Assembly: GCF_024166365.1 (NCBI RefSeq)
Contig: NC_064828.1
Span: forward strand, 30,567,814-30,631,813
DNA from: Elephas maximus
Lineage: Eukaryota
DNA: 64,000 nt
Direction: 5' to 3'
In this document: piece after piece, positions 14,653 to 29,688 of the stretch
How the letters are laid out: each line of letters opens with the position of its first letter
Numbering within the stretch: the first letter of the stretch is position 1
Position numbers and translations under genes: made by a program
Notes under the pieces: generated by a model
Told to the model about the DNA's origin: nothing
Databases searched by the model: none
What the model saw: only the letters and a program-made list of their open reading frames with translations

Positions 14653-15205
14653 TCACCCAGCAGGTTTGGTTTGGTGCAGGGTGGGACCCAACGCTATGTG
14701 TTGCACAGTGGGCAGTGTCAGGATGCAGGCAGGCATCTCAGCTCGAGGCCTCGGCAGAGCTCCCAGGCAGAGCCATCTCCCCAGACCAGGACTGTAGGCG
14801 TGAATAAGGTGGGAGACAGCATAGGTACGGTGGCTGTAGCCCCCCAGAACCAGTAGCTCCCCCTGCAGCACAGCACCTGCAGCCCCCACATGGGGGGAGG
14901 GCAGAGGTACAAGGTGAGTCCAGCTATCAGTCCTTGGTTCATAGGCCTCGAGGCTCAGCAAGTCCCCGGTCTCACCCAGCCCACCTGCTACATACAACCG
15001 CCCACCCAGAGCAGCCATGACGTGGCCAGCCCGAGGTACCCCCATAGGGTTCAGAAATGTTCCTGAATTCTCAAGTTTGGGGTCATAGTGCAGCAACGAG
15101 GCCAGGAATCGACCAGTTTCGCCACAGCCACCGCTCACATACAATCGGCCCTCCAAAACAGCAGCTGCATGGGCAAAGCATGATGCTGGAAGCGCAGGTG
15201 CTGGC
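14653..15205 (-). CDS. KLHL33: KLHL33 last coding exon (kelch repeats; stop TGA = revcomp of 14653-14655)
   Basis: Minus-strand ORF with kelch motifs (..GRLYVSGG.., ..GRLYVAGGLGETG.., ..LLVLGGYSH..). Acceptor cttag|GCCAGC at 15205/15206. Frame continues from the upstream exon (..ELNVWR|PAPALPASCFAHAAAVLEGRLY). Confidence 0.85.
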
Positions 15206-15315
15206 CTAAGGGAGAACAGGATGCAGATCAGTCAGCTATCATTTTCAACTCTCCTTCCATTCTAACTTCCCTAGTCTTTCCCTAATGCTTCAGAAACATG
15301 CCCTTCCCTGCTCAC

Positions 15316-15483
15316 CTCCAGACATTGAGCTCGGGGTTATAGGTCTCCACAGAGTTGAGGGCAATGCCATTGTTTCGCCCACCCAGGGCATAAAGTTGGC
15401 CATCCAGAGCCACCAGAGGGAAAAGGCTACGTGCCTGGCACAAAGGCGCCTTCTCCTCCCAGTCTTCTTGACTGGGATCCCAT
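15316..15483 (-). CDS. KLHL33: KLHL33 internal coding exon (one kelch repeat: RWDPSQEDWEEKAPLCQARSLFPLVALDGQLYALGGRNNGIALNSVETYNPELNVW)
   Basis: Found by translating the minus strand between two larger ORFs. Acceptor tgttcag|ATGGGA and donor TGGAG|gtgagcagg. 168 nt with phase 1 in / phase 2 out, matching both neighbouring exons. Confidence 0.85.
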
Positions 15484-15609
15484 CTGAACACGGTGGGACA
15501 AGAGATTAGATGAGTGATTCCGGGAGCCTGCAGTTGGCTGGGTCAGCCATTTCCCTCACCTGCCCACCTCGGGGCCTGCCACATGCTACCCACTCTCAGG
15601 GGCGCCTAC

Positions 15610-16534
15610 CTGAGAGTTGAAGCCAGGGTGCTGGAGTGGCTGTAGAAGTCTTGTCCTCCGCACACATAGAGTTCACTTCCTGACATGCTCGTAGCCCCAT
15701 GACGGAAGCGCCCAGGGGCCGGCAGGGTGGGCAACTGCCCCCACTCCACAGTTCGCACTAGCCCCATGCCACAGCGGAAGGCCCGGGCCCACCACACTCC
15801 TCGGGAGGGCTGTCTTATGGCCATGTCTGGTTGGAGCCCATCCCCACCAATCACCACCAGTGCCCGGTCAGGCTCCCTCCGCCTTTCCTGACCTGGAACC
15901 TCAGCCTCCACCATCAGCTGGTACAGCAGGTCTAGGGGCAGGAACGGGGGTAGCCCAGCTGCCCGCACCCTCCGCAGCTCCCTGGTGGACATGCGGCCAA
16001 AGCGGACACATCGCAGCAGGGCCTTGGCCTCTGACTCCTGGGTCTCAGGGTTGGCAGCTAGCCAACACCGTGCAGCCACAAAAGCCTCGAACTCCTCCTG
16101 CACATGAAGTTCATCGCTATCTAGGAGCTCAGCCAGGCAGGCAGCTGGCAAAGAAGGGAAAGTGGGGCACAAAGTCACAGCAGGCAGGTGGGTGAGGAGG
16201 TAGTGACGGGCTTTGCTCCAGAGCCTCTCCAACCCAGGGGCTTCTGCCCTGGGGAACAGGGCCAGGCAACGGGCAGGGCTGAGGCCCTGTGCCAAGGCTC
16301 TCTGGCACAGAGCTAGGCAGGAAGAGCTCTGGTACTGTAGAGCAGCCTGGGCGGCTCTCAGCAGTCCTGGCCACCTTGCCTGTACAACCCCAGAGTAGGC
16401 AAAAGAGACGAGGAGCTGCAGGTCGTGGGCAGAGATGGTGCGCAGAGACACCTCTGTGCCCTGGGATTCCTTCATCCCACTCAGGAGCATGGCCCCAAAG
16501 AACTCACTGCCACAGGCAAGGGCTGCTCGGTGCA
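15610..16534 (-). CDS. KLHL33: KLHL33 large coding exon (C-terminal half of BTB, BACK domain, first kelch repeat)
   Basis: 925-nt open frame. Acceptor ctcccctcctgcag|TGCACCGAGCAGCC with a polypyrimidine tract. Donor CTCAG|gtaggcgcc. Encodes ..VHRAALACGSEFFGAMLLSGMKESQGTEV..LQLLVSFAYSG.. (BTB) and ..LYVCGGQDFYSHSS (kelch). Confidence 0.85.
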
Positions 16535-16740
16535 CTGCAGGAGGGGAGAAGAAGCAGAGGGGAACACAGTGTTACAAGGCTGCTAGAAACCATTCTGATT
16601 CCACAACCCTAATTGGGCAGCCAATCACCCAAGGCTACAGGCCAAAGTGTAGCATGCAACAGAAAAGCACAGTGTCCTTGTTAAAATGCTGATTTGGGGA
16701 CCCACCCCCAGAGATCCTGATTGAGTAGGTCCTCTTCAGA

Positions 16741-16905
16741 GGAAACCCTGGTGGCGTAGGTTAACAGCTACGGCTGCTAACCAAAAGGTTGGCAGTTCAA
16801 ATCCAGCAGGTGCTCCTTGGAAACTCTATGGGGCAGTTCTACTCTATCCTATAGGGTCGCTATGAGTCGGAATTGACTCGACGGCAATGGGTCTGGTCTG
16901 GTCTT
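16741..16905 (+). mobile_element. AfroSINE in KLHL33 intron
   Basis: GGAAACCCTGGTGGCGTAGGTTAACAGCTACGGCTGCTAACCAAAAGGTTGGCAGTTCAAATCC.... Confidence 0.85.
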
Positions 16906-17590
16906 GACCAATTGTGACATGTCTGTGTCTCTCAAAGGGCAGGTGATGTTGATATGGCTTTCCACGCACTTTTTAAGCAGTAAATAGTGGCCAGGTGCTT
17001 CCCAAGCAGTAAACATCAATGACAGTTTCCAAATGTATGTTGTCGGAGAAAATCTGCATTCATAGAAGCAGTTTAAGCCATCTCAGCTTCCATATCATCA
17101 ATCAACCTATAGTGCAGTGACAATTGTGAAAGCACTCACACCACTTGTACCTCATCTTACTCATCATTATCCGTGAGGATTTTTAAGGGACAGGTTCCTA
17201 CCAATTAGTTGGAATGTTTCTTAAGGAAATGAAAGCAGTGGAGTATGTTTATATTCCAAATGCTAGGGAGAATTCTATAGTTAACAGAATTTTAAATTCC
17301 ATCTAGTGCTGTCAGAAAGGATAACAAACACTTTAGGGATTCTTTTCCTTCTGGGAGTCCCAGAAGCACTCCAGGTCCTCCAATGAGTAGCAGCTAGGTG
17401 GCTTTGGGCACATCTTGAAGTCTAATTTCTTTATCAGTATAGTGTAAGTAGAACTGCACCATATGGTTTTCAAGGAGTGGCTGGATAGTGTAAGAGCTGA
17501 ACTATATAATCTCTAAACTAGTTCCTTGTAACTTTAAAGCTTTATGTGTCTATATTCTGGCTCCATTTTCCATGTGTCTTTAGTACAGCA

Positions 17591-17750
17591 GGAAACCCTG
17601 GTGGTGTAGTGCTTAAGAGCTATAGCTGCTAACCAACAGGTCAGCAGTTCAAATCCCCCGGGCGCTCCTTGGAAACTCTACGCGGCAGTTCTACTCTGTC
17701 CTATAGGGTCACTACAAGTCGGAATTGACTGGACGGCAGTGTGTTTTGGG
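17591..17750 (+). mobile_element. AfroSINE in KLHL33 intron
   Basis: GGAAACCCTGGTGGTGTAGTGCTTAAGAGCTATAGCTGCTAACCAACAGGTCAGCAGTTCAAATCC.... Confidence 0.85.
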
Positions 17751-17989
17751 TTAGTACAGCACTATAAGAGGTAATGCATGGTCTAGTGGAAGCAGACAGG
17801 GCTAGTGGATGTGGGCTTGTATCTGGGTCTCACTAGTTAACATCTCTGAGTTTAATGGGGCTTACCTGCACCTAGGGATAATAGTACCTATCGCACTGGC
17901 TTTCAGTGAGAATTAACGGCAGTGGCATGTGTAAAATTCCTGGCACACAGTACTTCCCTAAATGTTGGTAGAATCTGAATAACACTCAG

Positions 17990-18160
17990 CTTGCCCTGGT
18001 GGCACCGTGGTTAAGAGCTAGGCTGCTAACCAAAAGCTCCGAAGTACTAATCCACCAGCCGCTCCTTGGAAACCCTATGAGGCAGTTCTACTCTGTCCTA
18101 TAAGGTCACTATGCTATGAGTTGGGTTTGACTCCATAGCAAGGGGTTCGGTTTTTTGGGT
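17990..18160 (+). mobile_element. AfroSINE in KLHL33 intron
   Basis: CCTGGTGGCACCGTGGTTAAGAGCTAGGCTGCTAACCAAAAGCTCCGAAGTACTAATCC.... Confidence 0.8.
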
Positions 18161-18699
18161 TTAGCTGAATGACACTTAGCTTTCCTGGTGCCATGCCTGG
18201 GAGCCTTAAGATTCTGGCAAAAGAATACCACACCTGGCTCATTAGCTGCAGGACCCACAAGTCTGCTATGGCGTTGAGCACACATGGCTGAAAGGATACA
18301 CTATGAGTTTTTCCACTGTGTTTCACTGACTTTTCCTGTGTCCTGAATAGCGGATGCCAAGAAACGCCTCTGGTTAATCCCTATTTCAGTCAATCACTTT
18401 CTGCTTGTTGCGCTGCCTAGGATTGTACCCTTAGCTCCAATCAGCTGGCTGGGAAATCCTTGTTGCCAGAGGGGGGCGGTGGGGGGAAGGGTCAGTCTAA
18501 ATACGTCAGCGCGCCGAGGAAAACAACTCAACTGCGCATGCCCCACTCTCAGTTGGTCAGGAGAGGCACCAAAAGCCACCCCAGGGAGATTCTGACTGCA
18601 GCAAGGATCAAAACCACTACAGTGTGGATCAAACCACCTGCTGTTTGCACACACCATTCCGGTAGCATATGCACCTGCAGCAATGTAATGCCCCACAGG

Positions 18700-19950
18700 C
18701 CCTCACCCCTCAGCCGGCAGCCTCCCGCCTCCAGCTCCAGGTCACACCCGACGCCCTCTTGGTATAGGAGCTCTATACAGCGCAAGTTCTCCCTCAGCTC
18801 CTCTGCCTGGCTGGACTTCCTTTCATCTTCCCGGGTGCTTCCAGTCCCCTCGCGTCTCTGCTGGGCCACAGCCTTTACCCGGGGGGCTCCCAGGGCCTCG
18901 GCTGCGGCCACCACATCCCGCAGCGGGACCGGGCCCAGCACCCCATCATAAGCAAAGGTCAGCACTGCCTCCCAGCCCCTGGGGGCCACGTCGAGACTGA
19001 GGGGGGGCTGTGGACCTCCGCCGCCCTGCAGCCTGCCTCGGAAGAGGCTGCTGACTGCGGCCAAGATCACGCGGTGCACTCCGTACACTCGCCCCCCAAC
19101 CGACACCTCTTCGTCCAACAACAACCTCTGCTCCCGCAGCCGCTGAGCTTCGGCGAAGAACTGGCTCGGGTGCTCCTCGCTGCGCAGCCCCTCTGGCTGC
19201 TCAGCGTCTTCATCGTCCTCATCCTCTTCCTCTAGGGGCAAGGCTGGAGAGGGAAGCTTCCCCGGGGCTAGGGACCTGGGGCTGGCCTCTTCCAGAGGAA
19301 AGGGGGGCAAGCTGGGATCCTTGTCCGGGGAGGGAGGCCAGGAGGGGACTCTCGGGGTGGTCAAAGGGAGGCCAACGTCGTCCTCCTGAACCAGAAGGGA
19401 GGCGTGCCTCGGGTCCGAGGAACCATGCGCGGTGCCCGGGACGCTCATGGCCCTGACTGGGTGGATTCAGGCAGGTGAGCAAAGGCAAGAAAGGAGGAGG
19501 TCAGAGCTGGACCCAGAGAGGCCAGAGGAACCCTTGCCTCCAGCCCTGCGAAATGTCCGTCCCTCCAACTGCTAACCCCCCCTACCCATCCTCCCAAGGC
19601 GACATCCCGGGCTCCAGCAGCTGGGCGATCGGGGCACAGCTATGGGTTTCACGAGGTGCAGGGAAGCATGCAAGCAGCGTGTATAAAGATCCACTACTCG
19701 GAACCGTATCCACAGGTCTTGTCAGCATCCCACCAGTCACCTCCCGAGGGACAAATGTTCCCCGTCACCCTCTCACTTGTGCGCCCGCTCAGCTTGGGGC
19801 CGCGTGGCAGAGGGAATTCGCTCCGCATCTGGGTCCAGGGCCCCATCCTGCTAATTATAGCCAGCGCTGGCTGGCTAGGGCCTGGGATTCCGGTGCCGGA
19901 ACTGACACCCAATCCCTGGTTCCCGTCCCAGAATGACCTCGCCTTCCACC
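18700..19950. promoter_or_regulatory. CpG-rich region over KLHL33 exon A and its upstream flank (putative KLHL33 promoter)
   Basis: High GC and many CpGs (e.g. 18880-19450). Spurious antisense ORFs appear here, as is typical of CpG islands. Confidence 0.5.
18707..19448 (-). CDS. KLHL33: KLHL33 upstream coding exon (Pro/acidic-rich N-terminus plus N-terminal half of BTB; ATG = revcomp of 19446-19448)
   Basis: Open frame MSVPGTAHGSS..EEEDEDDEDAEQ..ELRENLRCIELLYQEGVGCDLELEAGGCRLR ending at donor CTGAGGG|gtgagg. The join to exon 15610-16534 gives a contiguous canonical BTB (..CDLELEAGGCRLR|VHRAALACGSEFFGAM..). Start-codon choice and whether further 5' exons exist cannot be verified. Confidence 0.55.
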
Positions 19951-20242
19951 TGTAGGTCACCACGGGGTGCTATGCAAGGCAAATTCAGAAGCCAAGGAGG
20001 ATGCAGGGATGAGTGGTGACCCAAGCCAGAAGTACTGATCATGGGAGGGTACTGGAGGGCAGAGGCTTACCTAAGCCATAGCAGGAATGGAACGTGCCCA
20101 GAGTGCCACTTGAAGGTGGAAGTAGAGGAGCACTGAGCAGTTTCTATTCACCATTGCAATTTCCATCGCCAGCTGTGAGAGATCAGTCAGTAAGTTAAAC
20201 TAATACAGTACTTTCTATTTGAGAGCCACTGTGGGTCAAGGG

Positions 20243-20395
20243 GAGCCCTGGTGGCCCAGTGGTTAAGAGCTTGGATGTTAACCAGAAGGTCAGCGTTTGA
20301 ATCTACCAGCTTGGAAACCCTATAGGGCAGTTCTACTCGGTCCTACAGAGTCGCTATGTGTCTGAATCTACTCAACAGCAAGGGGGGGGTATGCC
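20243..20395 (+). mobile_element. AfroSINE
   Basis: GGGAGCCCTGGTGGCCCAGTGGTTAAGAGCTTGGATGTTAACCAGAAGGTCAGCGTTTGAATC.... Confidence 0.8.
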
Positions 20396-23300
20396 TCAAC
20401 ACAGACTGTGTGATCCTGCTGAGCGTAGAGCAAGAACAAATTGACAAAAATTACTTTGAGCACATCATAGACCAGTTTTCATCAGTGAAAGCAAGGAAGG
20501 TACAGTTGCATTTTTCATGTAGTGCCATAATGTGTTACGTAAAAGACTAAGGAGCTTGACTTGTATTTTTGAGCTGATAAGGTATCAAACCAAAAAACCA
20601 AACATGTTGCCTTCAAATTGATTCCCACTCACAGAGACCCAATATGGTACAGTTATCTAAACCACAGGTGTTAGATGTTTGGACAGGGGTGCAGAGGTGG
20701 AGAGTAAATGAGTTAGAGGAGTGCACTTGCCCCCCCCCCCCCACAAATCCAAGGGGGCCAGTCAAGGTGCAGAATGACATTCTGAGGCACCACAAATAGA
20801 AAAGCATCTGACTGAGGCAGCTGGACAGGTGGGGGATGGCTTTTCTGCCGAGACATGGCCTCTATCAACATCTATTCATTTTGAAATAGGGAGGGGGTGC
20901 AATTTAGAGACTGCCCTTGGGTGCTATTACCCTGGCTACGCCTCTGCTAGAGGGGGAAGGTTAAGAAAGGCTGGACCTTGGGATTGGCAGGGACGCAGGA
21001 CCAGAAGAGTGAAGCCTGTGTTTTGGGTCAGTCCTGGACTCTTCTATGGAAGATAAAGCTGGGACGCTGGAGTGAACAATACCGCTGTTAAGTGCAAACG
21101 TAGCCAGGTCGTGTCTGTAGAGGGCGGAGAGATAAAGGGCTAGGCTGAGGAGGTGCAGGGACAGGTATCTGGGTTACGAACCCCTAGGTGTCCCATCCCC
21201 AGCTCAGGGCTTCTGACGGGGAGATCCAACCCTGTGTCTTCGGAAGAGTCTTGGGGAGTCTAACCCTTACCTTGGCTCCCTAGTGGAATACAGGGTAGAT
21301 ACCTGCTGCTAACGGGAGTGGAATCTTGGATTAGATGGGCGGAGAGTGCACAAGTATTTGGACTGTTTGTGGAGGGGTGCCAATAGCTACATCCTCGGCT
21401 GGATCAATATGCCCTTCTGCATCCCAAGATGGAATCATCAGCTGAAGCCCCTAAAGCAGGGCAATCACTCTGTGCTGCAGTTCAGTGTGTCTTCTTAAGA
21501 CAGAGATTTGGGGAGCAGGAGGCAGAGATGCCCTTCCCCTCCCTTCTGTCAAGGAGGTAGGGCAGGCCATGGGCTGTAGGGGGTAAACTCCCTGGTTTAC
21601 AAAAACAATGGTCCAGGAGATCCAGGCATGACCGTTCCATACAATTCAGGTGAGAGGGGAGGGACTTGTGTAGGAGAGGGGTGGGAAAGTGGGTTGCCCG
21701 GCACAACACCCCTCTGGTTTCCAGAGATTCCTCTAGTGCCCCGTTGCCGCCTGGATACCCCAGCCCACCCGACATCCAGTTCCATGGGTGAGAGGTACCC
21801 TGGGCGTGCTCCTCAAAATGGTCAGATGGAGAAAGCAAGCCTGCGGCTGAGATGACCAGCCCAGGAAATGTTCATTTTTCACCAGAGGTTGTCCTGTCTG
21901 GCAAAAGGGGGGAACATGACCAGCCTCTGTACCCTCTTCCCCTGCCCAGACTGTTCAGACACCTGTCATGGTCTCCCTGCATCAAGCCAATGGAATCAGC
22001 ACCTTAAGCCCCCACCAGGTGGAGGAGGAACCCCATCAAGAAGCCCTGGCTGCCCCCCCCCCACCTACAAGGACAAGGAGAGTGGACCCCATCATGAATT
22101 CTGTGCCAACTCCGTGGTCCCAGACAGCTCTGCTGCAGTTGCCAGTCTCAGGATGCCCTTCACAGCTCCATCATGGTTAGAATCATGCCGGGCAGTAAGT
22201 CTCCAAAGGATGGATAAAACTTGCTGTCCTGGGTCACCCCCTACCACCCCCCCCGCCCCCGCCATTAAAGCCCTAGGACTGCCTTCCCTGCATCAGACCT
22301 CCAGGCCCATCAGCTACTAACTCATTGGCTGGGGAGTGGTCTCGGCATCTGCTTAGCCAGGGGATAGAGCAGCTTCACGGAGCTGCACTCCAGGGAAGAT
22401 GATCCAGAGAATTCAGGGGCAAGGCCAGGCAAGGCCCCAGCGCACTGGCTTTGGCTGGGTCACGGAAGTCATGATAACTGGAGCTCAGGGTTCCCAAAGG
22501 TTGGGGATGCAGGCAAGCAAGGCAGAACTTCAGAGGAGTAGATTCAGAAGGTGGCGAAGGGGGAAAACGGGTTCCCAGTGAAGACCATTGCTGCTCCTTT
22601 CCCACCCTGCTCCCCAGATGCACCCTGCTGCATGCTCAACACCTGGGCCGTCAACCTCTATTCGAGGATGCCTTGGATCACTGACCGCTCAGACCCTCAC
22701 AGGTGTGTGTTCAGGGCTCTCCTAGGCAGTAGGGAAGGGGTGGGGGATGGGCCTAAATGAATTAAAGGAGCCCCCACTCACATCCCCACTCCAGGTCTCA
22801 TGTGGCTTATTATCCTGCTCTCAGCCTCAATCACCACCATTGCTGGCCTACTTCGGCCATCCCCAGCTATGACAAAGTCAAAGCCGGTGAGCCTGTCTGG
22901 ATCTGATTATCTCCAGGGACTCCCAGTCCTGTCCGGAACTGCTGACCACACAGCAGCTCCTCTTTTCACTCCTCTCAGGCAGCATGTACTTCCTCATCTC
23001 ATACAGCTTGGGTCTGGAGTTCTTTGGTTCCCTAGGAATCATTTTTGCCTTCACCAATGCTGCCGTAGCTATGCATGCTGTGAGCTGTGGGGAGACCCTC
23101 TCAGACCTGCTCTGGGTAATACTCATCCCCTCCTCCTTCGAATCCCTTCTTTTCAAGTCTGCTTATTTTCTTGACAACCCTGCCCAACCCTCTGTCCTCT
23201 GTGACTTCAGCCCAGGAAGTCATTTAAAAATCTGATAAAGACACCAATCTGCAGATAAATACTGACTCTATGACCTCCTACTCCTGTGTCCGGCTCTCCT

Positions 23301-25495: not shown

Positions 25496-25535
25496 TTAGT
25501 CCCTCCAGGTCACTTCAACTTCATCTGTCCGATAC
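25496..25535 (-). CDS. OSGEP: OSGEP exon 11 (last; ..YRTDEVEVTWRD*; stop TAA = revcomp 25496-25498)
   Basis: Acceptor ttcttccacag|GTATCGG. Frame is continuous with exon 10 (..VTQ-R-YRTDEVEVTWRD), matching the human OSGEP C-terminus. Confidence 0.9.
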
Positions 25536-25686
25536 CTGTGGAAGAACAGGAAAACTTTGGTGAAGGGCTATCCCATTAGCACCTTCCATTCTTTTCTGCC
25601 CTCTTGATCCTAGGCCCTCTTCCCTGCTGATCCTTGCATTCTCCCTGATACAATCCTATCTCCCCCTTGAAGGGATGAATCCCTCA

Positions 25687-25818
<132 letters not shown>

Positions 25819-25883
25819 CTAATAGTATAAAGTCACAGTGATGGGAAAATAAAAAATTAAATCAAGCATGAGAAAGGGCCTTA

Positions 25884-25985
<102 letters not shown>

Positions 25986-26088
25986 TTAGCTTAGTTTTAG
26001 AGACTTCTCCATGGCCTAGCTACAGACCTCATGGGTATTTACTTACAAAAAAGAAGTAGGGGCTTGGGGCCTACAAGAAATGAAACTA

Positions 26089-26274
<186 letters not shown>

Positions 26275-26388
26275 CTATGAGGAACAAATATTGTGAAAAC
26301 ATCAGGGGGCCATCCCAACTCAGCTCTGCTCTATCATATAAAAAATCCTCCAGTCCCAACCTTCTGTCCCAGCTTTTTACCCCATTAC

Positions 26389-26454
26389 CTGCAAGGAGAA
26401 ACATAGATCCTCAGGGGTACACTCGCCTGTGGCCAGCATTCGTTGTGCTGCATC
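26389..26454 (-). CDS. OSGEP: OSGEP exon 7 (DAAQRMLATGECTPEDLCFSLQ)
   Basis: Acceptor taattgcag|GATGCAGC and donor TTGCAG|gtaatg. 66 nt, phase 0 at both ends. Confidence 0.9.
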
Positions 26455-26974
26455 CTGCAATTAACAGAGGTGAGAAAATAGTGGTGTTGGGGTTATATAA
26501 GAATAATAATTAGTACAATGGACCACCTTGTTTCACCACAATTTAAGTTACAGTACATCTCATACCACATTTCGCCCTTCAATGGCACTGAGCTAGAGGC
26601 AGCATTCATTCAAGATTCGATAATTATCTCTTTAATTCGTGCCCTGACACCCCCTAACCCTGCTTTATCTCTCCACAGTAGTTATATCTGACACGCTTTA
26701 TATTTTTTTCTTTTTTTTGAGTTGTTGTTTCTTTATCGTCTTTGCTCCAAGTAGACAGGGGTTTTTATTTTGCCCCATGCTGTATCTCTATTGCCTAGAA
26801 CAGTGCTTGGCACATAGAAGCTGCTCAGTAAGTTATTTGCTGAATGAATTTATTAAGCATCTGATATGAACCAACCCTATGCTACATACGGAAAATATGA
26901 CAGTGAGCAAAACAGGTATGTTTCATCAAGGAAACATGAAAGTGCCCCCATCTCATTACCTCTCCCACACTTAC

Positions 26975-27053
26975 CTCAATGAAAGACAGGATCCCTGAGA
27001 ATGAGACATCCATCCCCTTTACAGTGTATGGCAGCTCAACTAGCTTCTTGCCT
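26975..27053 (-). CDS. OSGEP: OSGEP exon 6 ([26 protein letters not shown])
   Basis: Acceptor cccacatag|AGGCAAG and donor CATTGAG|gtaagt. Confidence 0.9.
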
Positions 27054-27196
27054 CTATGTGGGAGGGAGTGTATGAGGCACTAAGCCTAGAGTCAGCTGGC
27101 TGCCCCCCCGAAGCCCCCCCAATCCTCAATAATATATATACAAGGAACTCCCTTAAGCCCCACCAGTCAGCCTCCCTTTATTTTATGACCCCTCAC

Positions 27197-27246
27197 CGCT
27201 TTGCCATCTGTTCAATGTTGTAGCCTGGACTTGGATCATTGGAAAT
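27197..27246 (-). CDS. OSGEP: OSGEP exon 5 (ISNDPSPGYNIEQMAK)
   Basis: Acceptor ctgccag|ATTTCC and donor GCAAAGCG|gtgagggg. Confidence 0.9.
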
Positions 27247-27319
27247 CTGGCAGAGAGAAAAACGGGAAAGAAGTGAATGACAGGATGAGGTCAGATATCC
27301 AGGAACCATAAGGAACTTA

Positions 27320-27496
<177 letters not shown>

Positions 27497-29056
27497 CTAA
27501 GGGTGGTGAGGATGTCCATGAAACCTCAAGTCTGTAAAGAGGAGTATTTGGCTTTGGGGAAGAACACAGCAGAGGATCAACATGGCCACTAAACTTTCCA
27601 ATACTAAATAAAAAAACAAGTATTTTCCCAAATCCTGAATGGGTAATTTTCTGTAGCTCTTACCTGAGAAGCAGCCCACATACAAGGATTCCCAGAAAAG
27701 ATTCCTAACTTACCGAAGGTATTCCAGGTTGACTCAGAAGCAAACCATCACTTCATATACTTTTTTTTTTAAACATTTTCCAGGACGCCATTTGAAAATG
27801 TGGACTAGGGAACAGGTTCTCCTGCTTAGAGGCAGGGTACAATACAAGTGCCCTTCTAGATTATACTAACAGGGCAGTGGTATCTGGAAACAAGGGAAGA
27901 GGCAGAGCTGAAGAACTCAAAATCCTCTGTTGGGCTAGACTAATGGCCCACTCCACTCAGCACTGGCAACTGACTTATGTCTGTTCTTCACATGCGACCA
28001 GCTTCTAGCACAGGGAATATTTATCACCCACTGACAGACACATCTGCTCCACACCTCCCACAGTGAGGGCTCCCCAGGGACCATAAACAGTCCTTTTCCC
28101 TTATCGGAGTTGCTGGGGCTTTCTTTCCTTTTTGATGTAAATCTTACTCTGTCATCAAGGGGTTTCAGCTGCCAAAACGCTGGTGACAAAAGAGGAAAGA
28201 AAAATCCTGTCTTTCTACTTCTGTTACTCACTCCTCTCTATCCAATTGTCTTGTTTTTTATGACTAGGCAAGTTTCACAAGGGAAGAAGGGAAAACTCCA
28301 TCTCTGATCGTCCTCATTGACCCTTGTAGACTTCTCTGCTACTGTCTATCCCCCAAATCCCTAACCTTTTATGTCATCCTTCTAGCTCCAACCAGCTCCT
28401 AACCCTCTACCTCCTGAAGTTCTCACATCAATTCCATGACTATGTGTACCTCATCTTTAATAATTATTTCACAAAATGAAGTTTTACAACATAACCCTCT
28501 TAAAAGCTGAGGACAATGCTCAACTATCCTTGACAAGAGCTCCGTCAGGTGTTCTGCAGGAAAGGAGGACTGGAGTCCTCTGACTCCATCCTCAAAAGGT
28601 CTTGCAAATACCCCAAACAACTCTAGTTTCACCTATGAATGTAAGACCTTTACCATTTATAAAATACTTTTTAAAATTTTTATATTTTCACACTCTTGGA
28701 ATAATGAATTCTATACATTTACCATGAAAAATAAAAATACAAATCAGGTAGTGCTCCTTAGTCTTAATTGTTAAGATTTATAGAAAAAAAATAAGCTTTA
28801 AAATATAAAAAAATCCTTCCATTACTTCGAAGGCTTCAATCCTTACCAGTCTTTCAATTTTCTAAACTGGAGATTCCTAATCTTTACATACATAAAAGTT
28901 CCTGAATACTCTGATTGTCCTGCCCAAGTCTGCAATGCTACAAACTCTGTTGCGGGTTCTCTGATGTCTAACATTTTAGGCTCAGATGAGTCCAGCTTTG
29001 TTCTTGCAGTTCCTGCCACCCATGTAGAACACATAAGTTGCTGGTATGGCATCTCA

Positions 29057-29688
<632 letters not shown>

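What the first reader, a model, noticed from the sequence alone, without database searches (positions are those of the whole stretch)
15610..19448. KLHL33 BTB domain is split by a 2.2-kb intron, and an upstream exon supplies its N-terminal half. A 533-aa gene model would start mid-domain
The exon at 15610-16534 begins in the middle of a BTB fold (VHRAALACGSEFFGAM..). The exon at 18707-19448 ends ..LRCIELLYQEGVGCDLELEAGGCRLR at a gtgagg donor, in phase. Together they give a canonical BTB (CD[VL]xLxxxGxxxxxHRxxLAxxSxxFxxMF). Starting instead at the first ATG inside the 15610 exon (MLLSGMKESQ..) gives 293+56+184 = 533 aa. That is the length I recall for the human KLHL33 reference protein. This suggests the reference may be N-terminally truncated and that the real protein includes the upstream exon. 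That exon encodes a Pro/Ser-rich stretch and an acidic stretch (EEEDEDDEDAEQPE).
Basis: partly seen in the sequence, partly recalled or inferred. Interest (0 to 1): 0.55.

Follow-up and report, generated by a model that had tools for sequence, protein, structure and literature searches.

The report
KLHL33 long form, already annotated

Summary
On the minus strand, four GT-AG exons (19448-18707, 16534-15610, 15483-15316, 15205-14653) give a 795-aa protein. Starting at the first ATG inside exon 2 (16490) gives exactly 533 aa.

- The generic BTB score rises from 20.2 bits (below Pfam's cut-off; profile 41-108 only) to 84.1 bits (profile 4-108) when the upstream exon is added.
- Assembled RNA contigs from a monkey and a bat use exactly the 18707|16534 junction.
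- dN/dS of the upstream exon is 0.3-0.46.

It is not new. The 795-aa protein differs by 2 residues from RefSeq 'kelch-like protein 33 [Loxodonta africana]'. Human RefSeq already has a 797-aa isoform 1 (NP_001352719.1). The 533-aa form is RefSeq isoform 2 and UniProt A6NCF5.

The parts
18707..19448 (-). First coding exon of KLHL33 (exon A). ATG at 19448-19446, 742 nt, phase-1 donor G|GTGAGG. It encodes aa 1-247 plus the first base of codon 248.
   Evidence: sequence, splice sites, frame; monkey and bat spliced RNA contigs end their match exactly at 18707; dN/dS 0.31-0.46.
19197..19448 (-). aa 1-84: Pro/Ser-rich segment ending in part of an acidic run (the run continues to aa 86). Predicted disordered. 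Present in mammals and marsupials, absent in sauropsid orthologues.
   Evidence: pLDDT <50 for aa 1-84. (alignment: turtles, lizards and birds lack it). (dN/dS about 0.5).
18849..19196 (-). BTB1 (aa 85-200): a complete extra BTB/POZ domain lying entirely inside exon A. It has no phi-x-E CUL3 motif.
   Evidence: PF00651 32.4 bits for exon A alone, aa 102-196, profile 2-103. (PDB hits NAC1, ZBTB7A, BACH1, KLHL26 BTBs, E 7e-9 to 4e-5). (pLDDT >90; beta1-alpha1-B1-B2-A1..A5). (dN/dS 0.19-0.31).
18708..18830 (-). N-terminal part of BTB2 encoded by exon A (aa 207-247): the long alpha1 helix and strands B1 and B2 (..GVGCDLELEAGGCRLR).
   Evidence: BTB profile 4-108 matched at aa 228-330 only when exon A is joined. 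(H207-231, E237-241, E244-248).
16535..18706 (-). Intron 1 (2172 nt, GT..AG), which splits BTB2 after strand B2. It holds three copies of a 132-nt SINE-like repeat (16761-16892, 17613-17744, 18010-18141).
   Evidence: splice sites. (repeat family D1). Naming the repeat as AfroSINE rests on my own recollection, not on a tool.
15610..16534 (-). Exon B (925 nt): the rest of BTB2 (aa 248-330, 16287-16534), the BACK domain and the first Kelch blade(s).
   Evidence: BACK at aa 337-437, 61.6 bits. (RNA contigs).
16488..16490 (-). ATG of M263, the start of the 533-aa model. In the fold model it lies inside helix aa 258-265 of BTB2.
   Evidence: PF21536 'BTB_KLHL33' (63 positions) matches aa 263-325, which is residues 1-63 of the 533-aa form.
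16467..16475 (-). M268-K269-E270: the phi-x-E motif of BTB2 (CUL3-contact motif of BTB adaptors). M268 and E270 are invariant in 40 orthologues.
   Evidence: invariant columns. The role of the motif comes from established knowledge of SPOP and KLHL3/KLHL11-CUL3 structures and was not tested here.
15316..15483 (-). Exon C (168 nt), Kelch repeats.
14653..15205 (-). Exon D (553 nt including stop TGA at 14653-14655), Kelch repeats and C-terminus.
   Evidence: (six-bladed Kelch propeller matches, TM about 0.9).
19742..20015 (-). Candidate non-coding 5' exon or promoter-proximal region. It is homologous to the 5' end of the bat transcript and contains a MEF2-consensus site CTATAATTAG at 19851-19860.
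   Evidence: Tentative: the monkey contig is instead colinear with the genome for at least 118 nt upstream of the ATG.

Best explanation
The region is the 5' half of the elephant KLHL33 gene. The true CDS has four coding exons and encodes a 795-aa protein. Its layout is a disordered Pro/Ser/acidic N-terminus, BTB1, a linker helix, BTB2, BACK and a six-bladed Kelch propeller.

Intron 1 (2.2 kb) cuts BTB2 after strand B2. A model that starts at the first ATG inside exon 2 therefore loses alpha1, B1, B2, the following helix and half of the next one, and loses all of BTB1. That is the 533-aa form. It arises from transcripts that carry intron-1 sequence in front of exon 2, either by intron retention or from an internal start.

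Inferred mechanism: the long protein is a CUL3 substrate adaptor. BTB2 carries the M-x-E motif and is followed by the BACK domain (the 3-box itself was not examined), so it would bind CUL3. BTB1 occupies the position normally taken by the partner chain in a BTB homodimer.

Shown here: exon structure, splice usage in other mammals, domain content, conservation.
Inferred only: CUL3 binding, the intramolecular BTB1-BTB2 pairing, and the instability of the 533-aa product.
For: - **Gene model.** Model and splice sites.
- **Pfam scores.** BTB rises from 20.2 to 84.1 bits. BACK scores 61.6 bits and Kelch_1 137 bits.
- **Match to annotation.** The 795-aa RefSeq Loxodonta africana KLHL33 has only 2 mismatches. 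The annotated gene span in GCA_030014295.1 is 4796 nt, identical to 14653-19448.
- **Orthologues.** Models of about 795-800 aa exist in dozens of mammals, and 709-775 aa in marsupials, reptiles and birds. Human isoform 1 is NP_001352719.1, 797 aa.
- **Spliced RNA.** Contigs L002 (monkey, 2611 nt, uninterrupted 811-aa ORF) and L005 (bat) join 18707 to 16534.
- **Selection.** dN/dS is 0.31-0.46 for exon A, 0.19-0.31 for BTB1 and 0.15-0.18 for exon B.
- **Deep conservation.** The tandem-BTB layout is found in crocodilian, newt, fishes, amphioxus and hemichordates.
- **Source of the short form.** Contigs L003 and L004 carry at least 880 nt of unspliced sequence, closed in all three frames and running straight into exon B, ahead of a 533-aa ORF. 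The mouse MGC cDNA protein B7ZMY3 reads through the exon-A donor.
Against: - No elephant RNA data were available, so use of the junction in this species is inferred from orthologues.
- Short-form transcripts do exist (L003 and L004; human RefSeq isoform 2), so the 533-aa ORF is not purely an annotation artefact.
- Ensembl models in pig, rabbit and squirrel join exon A directly to exon C, with a frameshift, giving 327-351 aa. Splicing here is therefore heterogeneous.
- No protein-level evidence was examined for either form.
Confidence: 0.9

Rival explanations
1. Both proteins are genuine products. An internal promoter in intron 1, or regulated intron-1 retention, yields a 533-aa isoform with its own function. 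It could, for example, be a Kelch/BACK protein that binds substrate but cannot assemble normally with CUL3.
For: - Two independent rodent RNA contigs are spliced at introns 2 and 3 but carry 880-920 nt of unspliced upstream sequence in front of exon B.
- RefSeq keeps the human 533-aa form as isoform 2.
- PMC7672584 reports muscle-specific hypomethylated promoter-type chromatin extending far downstream of the KLHL33 TSS.
- M263 is nearly invariant across orthologues.
Against: - M263 sits in the conserved BTB motif F-x-A-M, so its conservation is explained by the fold and not by use as a start codon.
- The product would begin inside helix aa 258-265 and lack B1, B2 and the preceding helix. Its BTB score falls below Pfam's cut-off.
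- The retained-intron contigs could equally be incompletely processed RNA.
- No conservation of intron 1 was seen between species beyond about 65 nt upstream of exon B.
Confidence: 0.25
2. Exon A is not part of KLHL33. It would be a separate small gene or an upstream ORF encoding a ~250-aa BTB-only protein, and the A-B join would be a gene-prediction artefact.
For: - Many database entries are exon-A-only proteins of 216-381 aa.
- The mouse cDNA product B7ZMY3 (218 aa) terminates in intron 1.
Against: - Uninterrupted 811-aa and 795-aa ORFs on 2.6-kb and 3.5-kb RNA contigs cross the junction.
- The exon ends in mid-BTB at the same residue in all amniote orthologues aligned.
- BTB2 is complete only across the junction.
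- The tandem architecture is conserved to amphioxus.
- The exon-A-only entries read through the donor into intron sequence, or are prokaryote-style ORF calls on short genomic contigs.
Confidence: 0.02

Closest known systems
KLHL33 long form as annotated in RefSeq (Loxodonta africana kelch-like protein 33, 795 aa; human NP_001352719.1 isoform 1, 797 aa)
   Same: Same four-exon CDS, same junction and same length. It is 793/795 identical to the elephant RefSeq protein. The neighbour is an OSGEP-like TsaD-family gene, as at the annotated elephant locus.
   Different: Nothing of substance. The window differs from assembly GCA_030014295.1 by about 0.8-1.1% at DNA level and by 2 amino acids, so it comes from another elephant assembly, individual or close species.
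Human KLHL33 533-aa entry (UniProt A6NCF5; RefSeq NP_001103467.2 isoform 2) and Pfam PF21536 'BTB_KLHL33'
   Same: Colinear with aa 263-795 of the window protein, 89% identical. PF21536 matches aa 263-325.
   Different: It lacks aa 1-262: the disordered N-terminus, BTB1 and the first third of BTB2. The 63-position Pfam model begins exactly at residue 1 of the truncated protein, so it describes a partial BTB and not a distinct domain type. That last point is inferred from the coordinates.
Canonical BTB-BACK-Kelch CUL3 adaptors (KLHL22, KBTBD2, KBTBD4, KLHL3, KEAP1)
   Same: The overall BTB-BACK-Kelch fold is the best structural match (Foldseek E 1e-31 to 1e-25). There is an M-x-E motif in BTB2 and a six-bladed propeller.
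   Different: Those proteins have one BTB and form homodimers. KLHL33 has two BTBs in one chain, and the model places BTB1 where the partner chain's BTB would be.
Engineered single-chain BTB heterodimers Miz1-BCL6 and Miz1-NAC1 (PDB 4U2M, 4U2N)
   Different: Those are artificial fusions of BTB-zinc-finger domains. KLHL33 would be a natural tandem, with a ~25-residue helix (aa 207-231) as part of the connection and a BACK-Kelch module after BTB2.
RhoBTB1-3 (natural proteins with two BTB domains that assemble CUL3 ligases)
   Same: Tandem BTB domains with a BACK-like region, and only one BTB binds CUL3 (PMC4931677).
   Different: RhoBTB has a Rho GTPase domain and no Kelch propeller. Its CUL3-binding BTB is the first one, and that domain is bipartite. 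In KLHL33 the M-x-E motif is in the second BTB.

Membership tests
KLHL (BTB-BACK-Kelch) family | A complete BTB/POZ domain (PF00651) | tested here: met
   84.1 bits, aa 228-330, profile positions 4-108 of 110, for the joined model. The 533-aa model scores 20.2 bits, below the 20.5 cut-off.
KLHL (BTB-BACK-Kelch) family | BACK domain (PF07707) directly after the BTB | tested here: met
   61.6 bits, aa 337-437.
KLHL (BTB-BACK-Kelch) family | Five to six Kelch repeats forming a beta-propeller | tested here: met
   Kelch_1 137 bits in 5 stretches; the model matches six-bladed Kelch domains of KLHL3, KLHL12 and KEAP1 with target-normalised TM about 0.9.
KLHL (BTB-BACK-Kelch) family | Binding of CUL3 through the BTB phi-x-E motif and 3-box | not testable with these tools
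   The motif M268-K-E270 is present and invariant. Binding itself was not tested.
KLHL33 orthologue group | Best full-length match to annotated KLHL33, with conserved neighbourhood | tested here: met
   793/795 identity to RefSeq L. africana KLHL33; the annotated gene span is 4796 nt, the same as 14653-19448, and the upstream neighbour carries a TsaD domain (OSGEP-like).
KLHL33 orthologue group | Tandem BTB1-BTB2 N-terminal architecture | tested here: met
   two PF00651 stretches in elephant, human isoform 1, newt, paddlefish, amphioxus and acorn-worm proteins; the profile of both BTBs is matched end to end in many ~700-800-aa representatives.
Obligate homodimeric BTB adaptors | Two chains pair through their BTB domains | not testable with these tools
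   The AF2 monomer model fills the dimer interface of BTB2 with BTB1. No multimer prediction or experiment was possible.
RhoBTB family | N-terminal Rho GTPase domain preceding the two BTBs | tested here: not met
   no Ras/Rho family hit. The N-terminus is disordered.

The most novel reading that the evidence does not exclude
KLHL33 is a natural single-chain BTB pseudo-dimer. BTB1 has no M-x-E motif and no BACK. It folds back onto BTB2 in the geometry of a canonical BTB dimer, so the protein would present one CUL3 site and one Kelch propeller per molecule. The usual KLHL assembly is 2:2.

The architecture dates back to the deuterostome ancestor. It has been hidden in family-wide analyses that used the 533-aa human sequence. 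One such analysis could not place KLHL33 in any clade (PMC10146909).
Probability: 0.4. Interest if true: 0.5.

Novelty: already known. Interest (0 to 1): 0.22.

Why it matters
**For the finding as given.** It has little consequence. The correct long model is already in RefSeq for elephant, human and most vertebrates. The practical point is a database-hygiene one. UniProt's reviewed human entry is the truncated 533-aa protein. Pfam family PF21536 has boundaries that coincide with that protein's N-terminus. KLHL-family comparisons that use the truncated protein will misjudge KLHL33.

**The by-product is of more interest.** KLHL33 is a muscle-enriched, essentially unstudied ligase adaptor, and its full-length form has two BTB domains predicted to pair within one chain. 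If true, it would be a monovalent CUL3 adaptor, which affects how substrates would be engaged and ubiquitinated.

Tried and rejected
- **Exon A alone as a database query.** It returned only short exon-A ORFs and fragment models and missed the full-length proteins. A second search with the joined protein was needed.
- **Dhanoa et al. 2013 KLHL review (PMC3658946).** It does not mention KLHL33.
- **Literature on KLHL33 domains.** Of the 16 papers that mention both KLHL33 and BTB, the four I opened say nothing on its domain architecture or isoforms. The titles of the rest are expression or association studies.
- **The 31-aa (93-nt) deletion inside BTB1.** It is seen in the mouse cDNA protein B7ZMY3 and in several Ensembl models. 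In the window the segment (18963-19055) has no in-frame GT..AG boundaries and is flanked by a 5-nt direct repeat GCAGT. I therefore treat it as a cDNA artefact or non-canonical event propagated by projection, not as a real exon boundary.
- **Exon A spliced to exon C in pig, rabbit and squirrel models.** These are frameshifted and were rejected as the main product.
- **In-frame upstream ATG of the monkey contig (MPLLTRSYPANLG-MSV..).** In the elephant the corresponding sequence is out of frame and starts with TTG.
- **AlphaFold-database fold search.** It was unavailable, so I could not ask whether other natural tandem-BTB proteins are modelled as pseudo-dimers.
- **Model coordinates and PAE.** The inferred beta1(BTB1)-beta5(BTB2) strand pairing rests only on the DSSP string and the superposition scores.
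Full report
**1. Observation**

| Feature | Coordinates (minus strand) | Length | Notes |
|---|---|---|---|
| Exon A | 19448-18707 | 742 nt | ATG at 19448; ends ...CTG AGG G followed by GTGAGG |
| Intron 1 | 18706-16535 | 2172 nt | ...CTTCTTCTCCCCTCCTGCAG acceptor at exon B |
| Exon B | 16534-15610 | 925 nt | Begins TG CAC CGA; donor GTAGGC |
| Exon C | 15483-15316 | 168 nt | |
| Exon D | 15205-14653 | 553 nt | Includes TGA |

- The split codon G|TG gives V248, and the join reads ..GVGCDLELEAGGCRLR|VHRAALACGSEFFGAMLLSGMKESQ...
- The CDS is 2388 nt, or 795 aa.
- From the ATG at 16490-16488 (MLLSGM) the ORF is exactly 533 aa.
- The intron holds three copies of a 132-nt SINE-like repeat. I recognise these from memory as AfroSINE-type, which fits an afrotherian genome.

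**2. Is the upstream exon part of the protein?**

Five independent lines say yes.

- **Domain completeness.**
  - The generic BTB model PF00651 scores 20.2 bits on the 533-aa protein. That is below the 20.5-bit gathering score, and only profile positions 41-108 are matched.
  - It scores 84.1 bits on the joined protein, with positions 4-108 matched at aa 228-330.
- **Annotation.**
  - The joined protein is the RefSeq 'kelch-like protein 33 [Loxodonta africana]', 795 aa, with two substitutions (P35S, S659P).
  - The annotated gene in assembly GCA_030014295.1 spans 4796 nt, exactly the distance 14653-19448. It has an OSGEP-like (TsaD-domain) gene upstream.
  - The window is 98.9-99.2% identical to that assembly.
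  - Models of 790-800 aa exist for dozens of placental mammals, about 775 aa for marsupials, 742-825 aa for turtles and lizards, and 709 aa (partial) for birds.
- **Transcripts.**
  - A 2611-nt contig assembled from run SRR33486306 carries an uninterrupted 811-aa ORF. Its protein clusters with macaque and baboon KLHL33.
  - A 3499-nt contig from SRR1584453 carries a 795-aa ORF, in a Myotis-type cluster.
  - Aligned to the window, both jump from 18707 to 16535/16534, then 15610 to 15483 and 15316 to 15205. They have no room for introns.
- **Selection.** Nei-Gojobori dN/dS among elephant, monkey and bat:

| Region | dN/dS |
|---|---|
| Exon A (whole) | 0.31-0.46 |
| BTB1 | 0.19-0.31 |
| Disordered N-terminus | about 0.5 |
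| Exon B | 0.15-0.18 |

- **Depth.** A profile of aa 85-345 matches end to end in ~700-800-aa proteins of a gharial, a newt, paddlefish and teleosts (named KLHL33). It also matches in amphioxus and acorn worms, where the proteins carry assorted KLHL names. Pfam finds two BTB stretches in each one tested.

**3. The human reference**

Both are 533 aa and start MLLSGMRESQ.
- RefSeq labels that protein isoform 2.
- RefSeq also has NP_001352719.1, isoform 1, 797 aa, with the same junction (..GGCQLS|VHRAALACGSEFF).
- The suspected truncation is therefore real for the older entries and has already been corrected. The finding is not new.
- A side effect of the old model survives in Pfam. PF21536 'BTB_KLHL33' has 63 positions that match aa 263-325, which is residues 1-63 of the truncated protein.
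[quoted passage not shown] I did not check which sequence its authors used.

**4. Where the short form comes from**

- Two murid-rodent RNA contigs (L003, L004) are spliced at introns 2 and 3. They carry 880-920 nt of unspliced sequence immediately upstream of exon B, closed in all three frames, so the longest ORF is the 533-aa one.
- The mouse MGC cDNA product B7ZMY3 (218 aa) covers exon A and reads through its donor into the intron (..YRLRGESL).
- Intron-1 retention or an internal start therefore produces the transcripts behind the short model.
- Whether the 533-aa protein is made is unknown. In the AlphaFold2 model M263 lies inside the helix aa 258-265. The product would lack alpha1, strands B1 and B2 and the helix aa 250-256 of BTB2.

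**5.

- Exon A alone contains a full BTB (PF00651 32.4 bits, aa 102-196, profile 2-103).
- phmmer against PDB sequences hits the BTBs of NAC1, ZBTB7A, BACH1 and KLHL26 at E 7e-9 to 4e-5.
- BTB1 and BTB2 are 31% identical over 64 residues.
- In the full-length model aa 1-84 are disordered. BTB1 (85-200) and BTB2 (207-330) mostly have pLDDT above 90.
- BTB2 carries the M-x-E motif (M268, E270 invariant) and is followed by BACK. BTB1 has neither.

**6. Predicted arrangement of the two BTBs**

- A model of aa 85-345 alone has mean pLDDT 90.3 and pTM 0.89.
- Its best structural matches are not single BTB domains. They are the engineered single-chain BTB heterodimers 4U2M (Miz1-BCL6) and 4U2N (Miz1-NAC1).
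  - Foldseek gives E 2.5e-13 to 9e-12, 241-246 aligned columns and TM 0.65-0.83.
- One 4U2M chain is a complete forced heterodimer (PMC9468604).
- The model therefore places BTB1 where the second chain sits in an ordinary BTB dimer.
- The DSSP string fits the usual swapped sheet. BTB1 has an N-terminal strand (aa 86-89) and BTB2 an extra strand (aa 297-300).
- This is a prediction from a model that has seen many BTB dimers. It needs experimental testing.

**7. Verdict**

- The gene model is already public for this species and for human, so novelty is 'already known' and interest is low.
- The tandem-BTB pseudo-dimer idea is the only part that might be new. In this library I found no discussion of it. 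The four KLHL33-and-BTB papers I opened do not address domain architecture, and a search for tandem or two-BTB proteins surfaced only RhoBTB papers.

**8. Limits**

- No elephant transcript data were available.
- No protein-level evidence was examined.
- The AlphaFold-database fold library was unavailable.
- MANE or Ensembl canonical status of the human isoforms could not be checked.

Noticed in passing
[not shown]
   Followed up: yes
window 18963-19055 (-): A 93-nt (31-aa) segment inside BTB1 is missing from the mouse cDNA protein B7ZMY3 and from Ensembl models of donkey, polar bear, goat, dog and wombat. In the window it has no in-frame GT..AG boundaries and is flanked by a GCAGT direct repeat. 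This suggests a reverse-transcription artefact, or a non-canonical event, propagated by model projection.
   Followed up: partly
window 15316-15483 and 18707 (-); proteins P0001, P0016, P0023: Ensembl models in pig, rabbit and squirrel splice exon A directly to exon C, skipping exon B. This shifts the frame and ends at 327-351 aa. It may be an NMD-type alternative transcript.
   Followed up: partly
window 19851-19860 (-), within 19742-20015: A MEF2-consensus site CTATAATTAG (CTAAAATTAG in the bat transcript) lies in a block conserved with the 5' end of the bat KLHL33 mRNA. This fits the skeletal-muscle-enriched expression reported for KLHL33 (PMC7672584). The block may be a non-coding first exon.
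   Followed up: partly
window 16761-16892, 17613-17744, 18010-18141; also about 20290-20400: Three copies of a 132-nt SINE-like repeat lie in intron 1, and a similar element lies upstream of the gene. From memory they are AfroSINE-type, consistent with the elephant origin.
   Followed up: partly
window about 25500-29400 (-); locus L001 1-3915: The upstream neighbour on the same strand encodes a TsaD-family protein (OSGEP-like, 340 aa). I recall the human KLHL33 neighbourhood having the same arrangement.
   Followed up: no
whole window versus L001: The window is only 98.9-99.2% identical to Loxodonta africana assembly GCA_030014295.1, and its KLHL33 differs by P35S and S659P. It therefore derives from a different elephant assembly, individual or closely related species.
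   Followed up: no
Pfam PF21536 on aa 263-325 (window 16302-16490, -): The Pfam family 'BTB_KLHL33' has boundaries that start exactly at residue 1 of the truncated 533-aa protein. It appears to model a partial BTB left over from the old gene model.
   Followed up: partly
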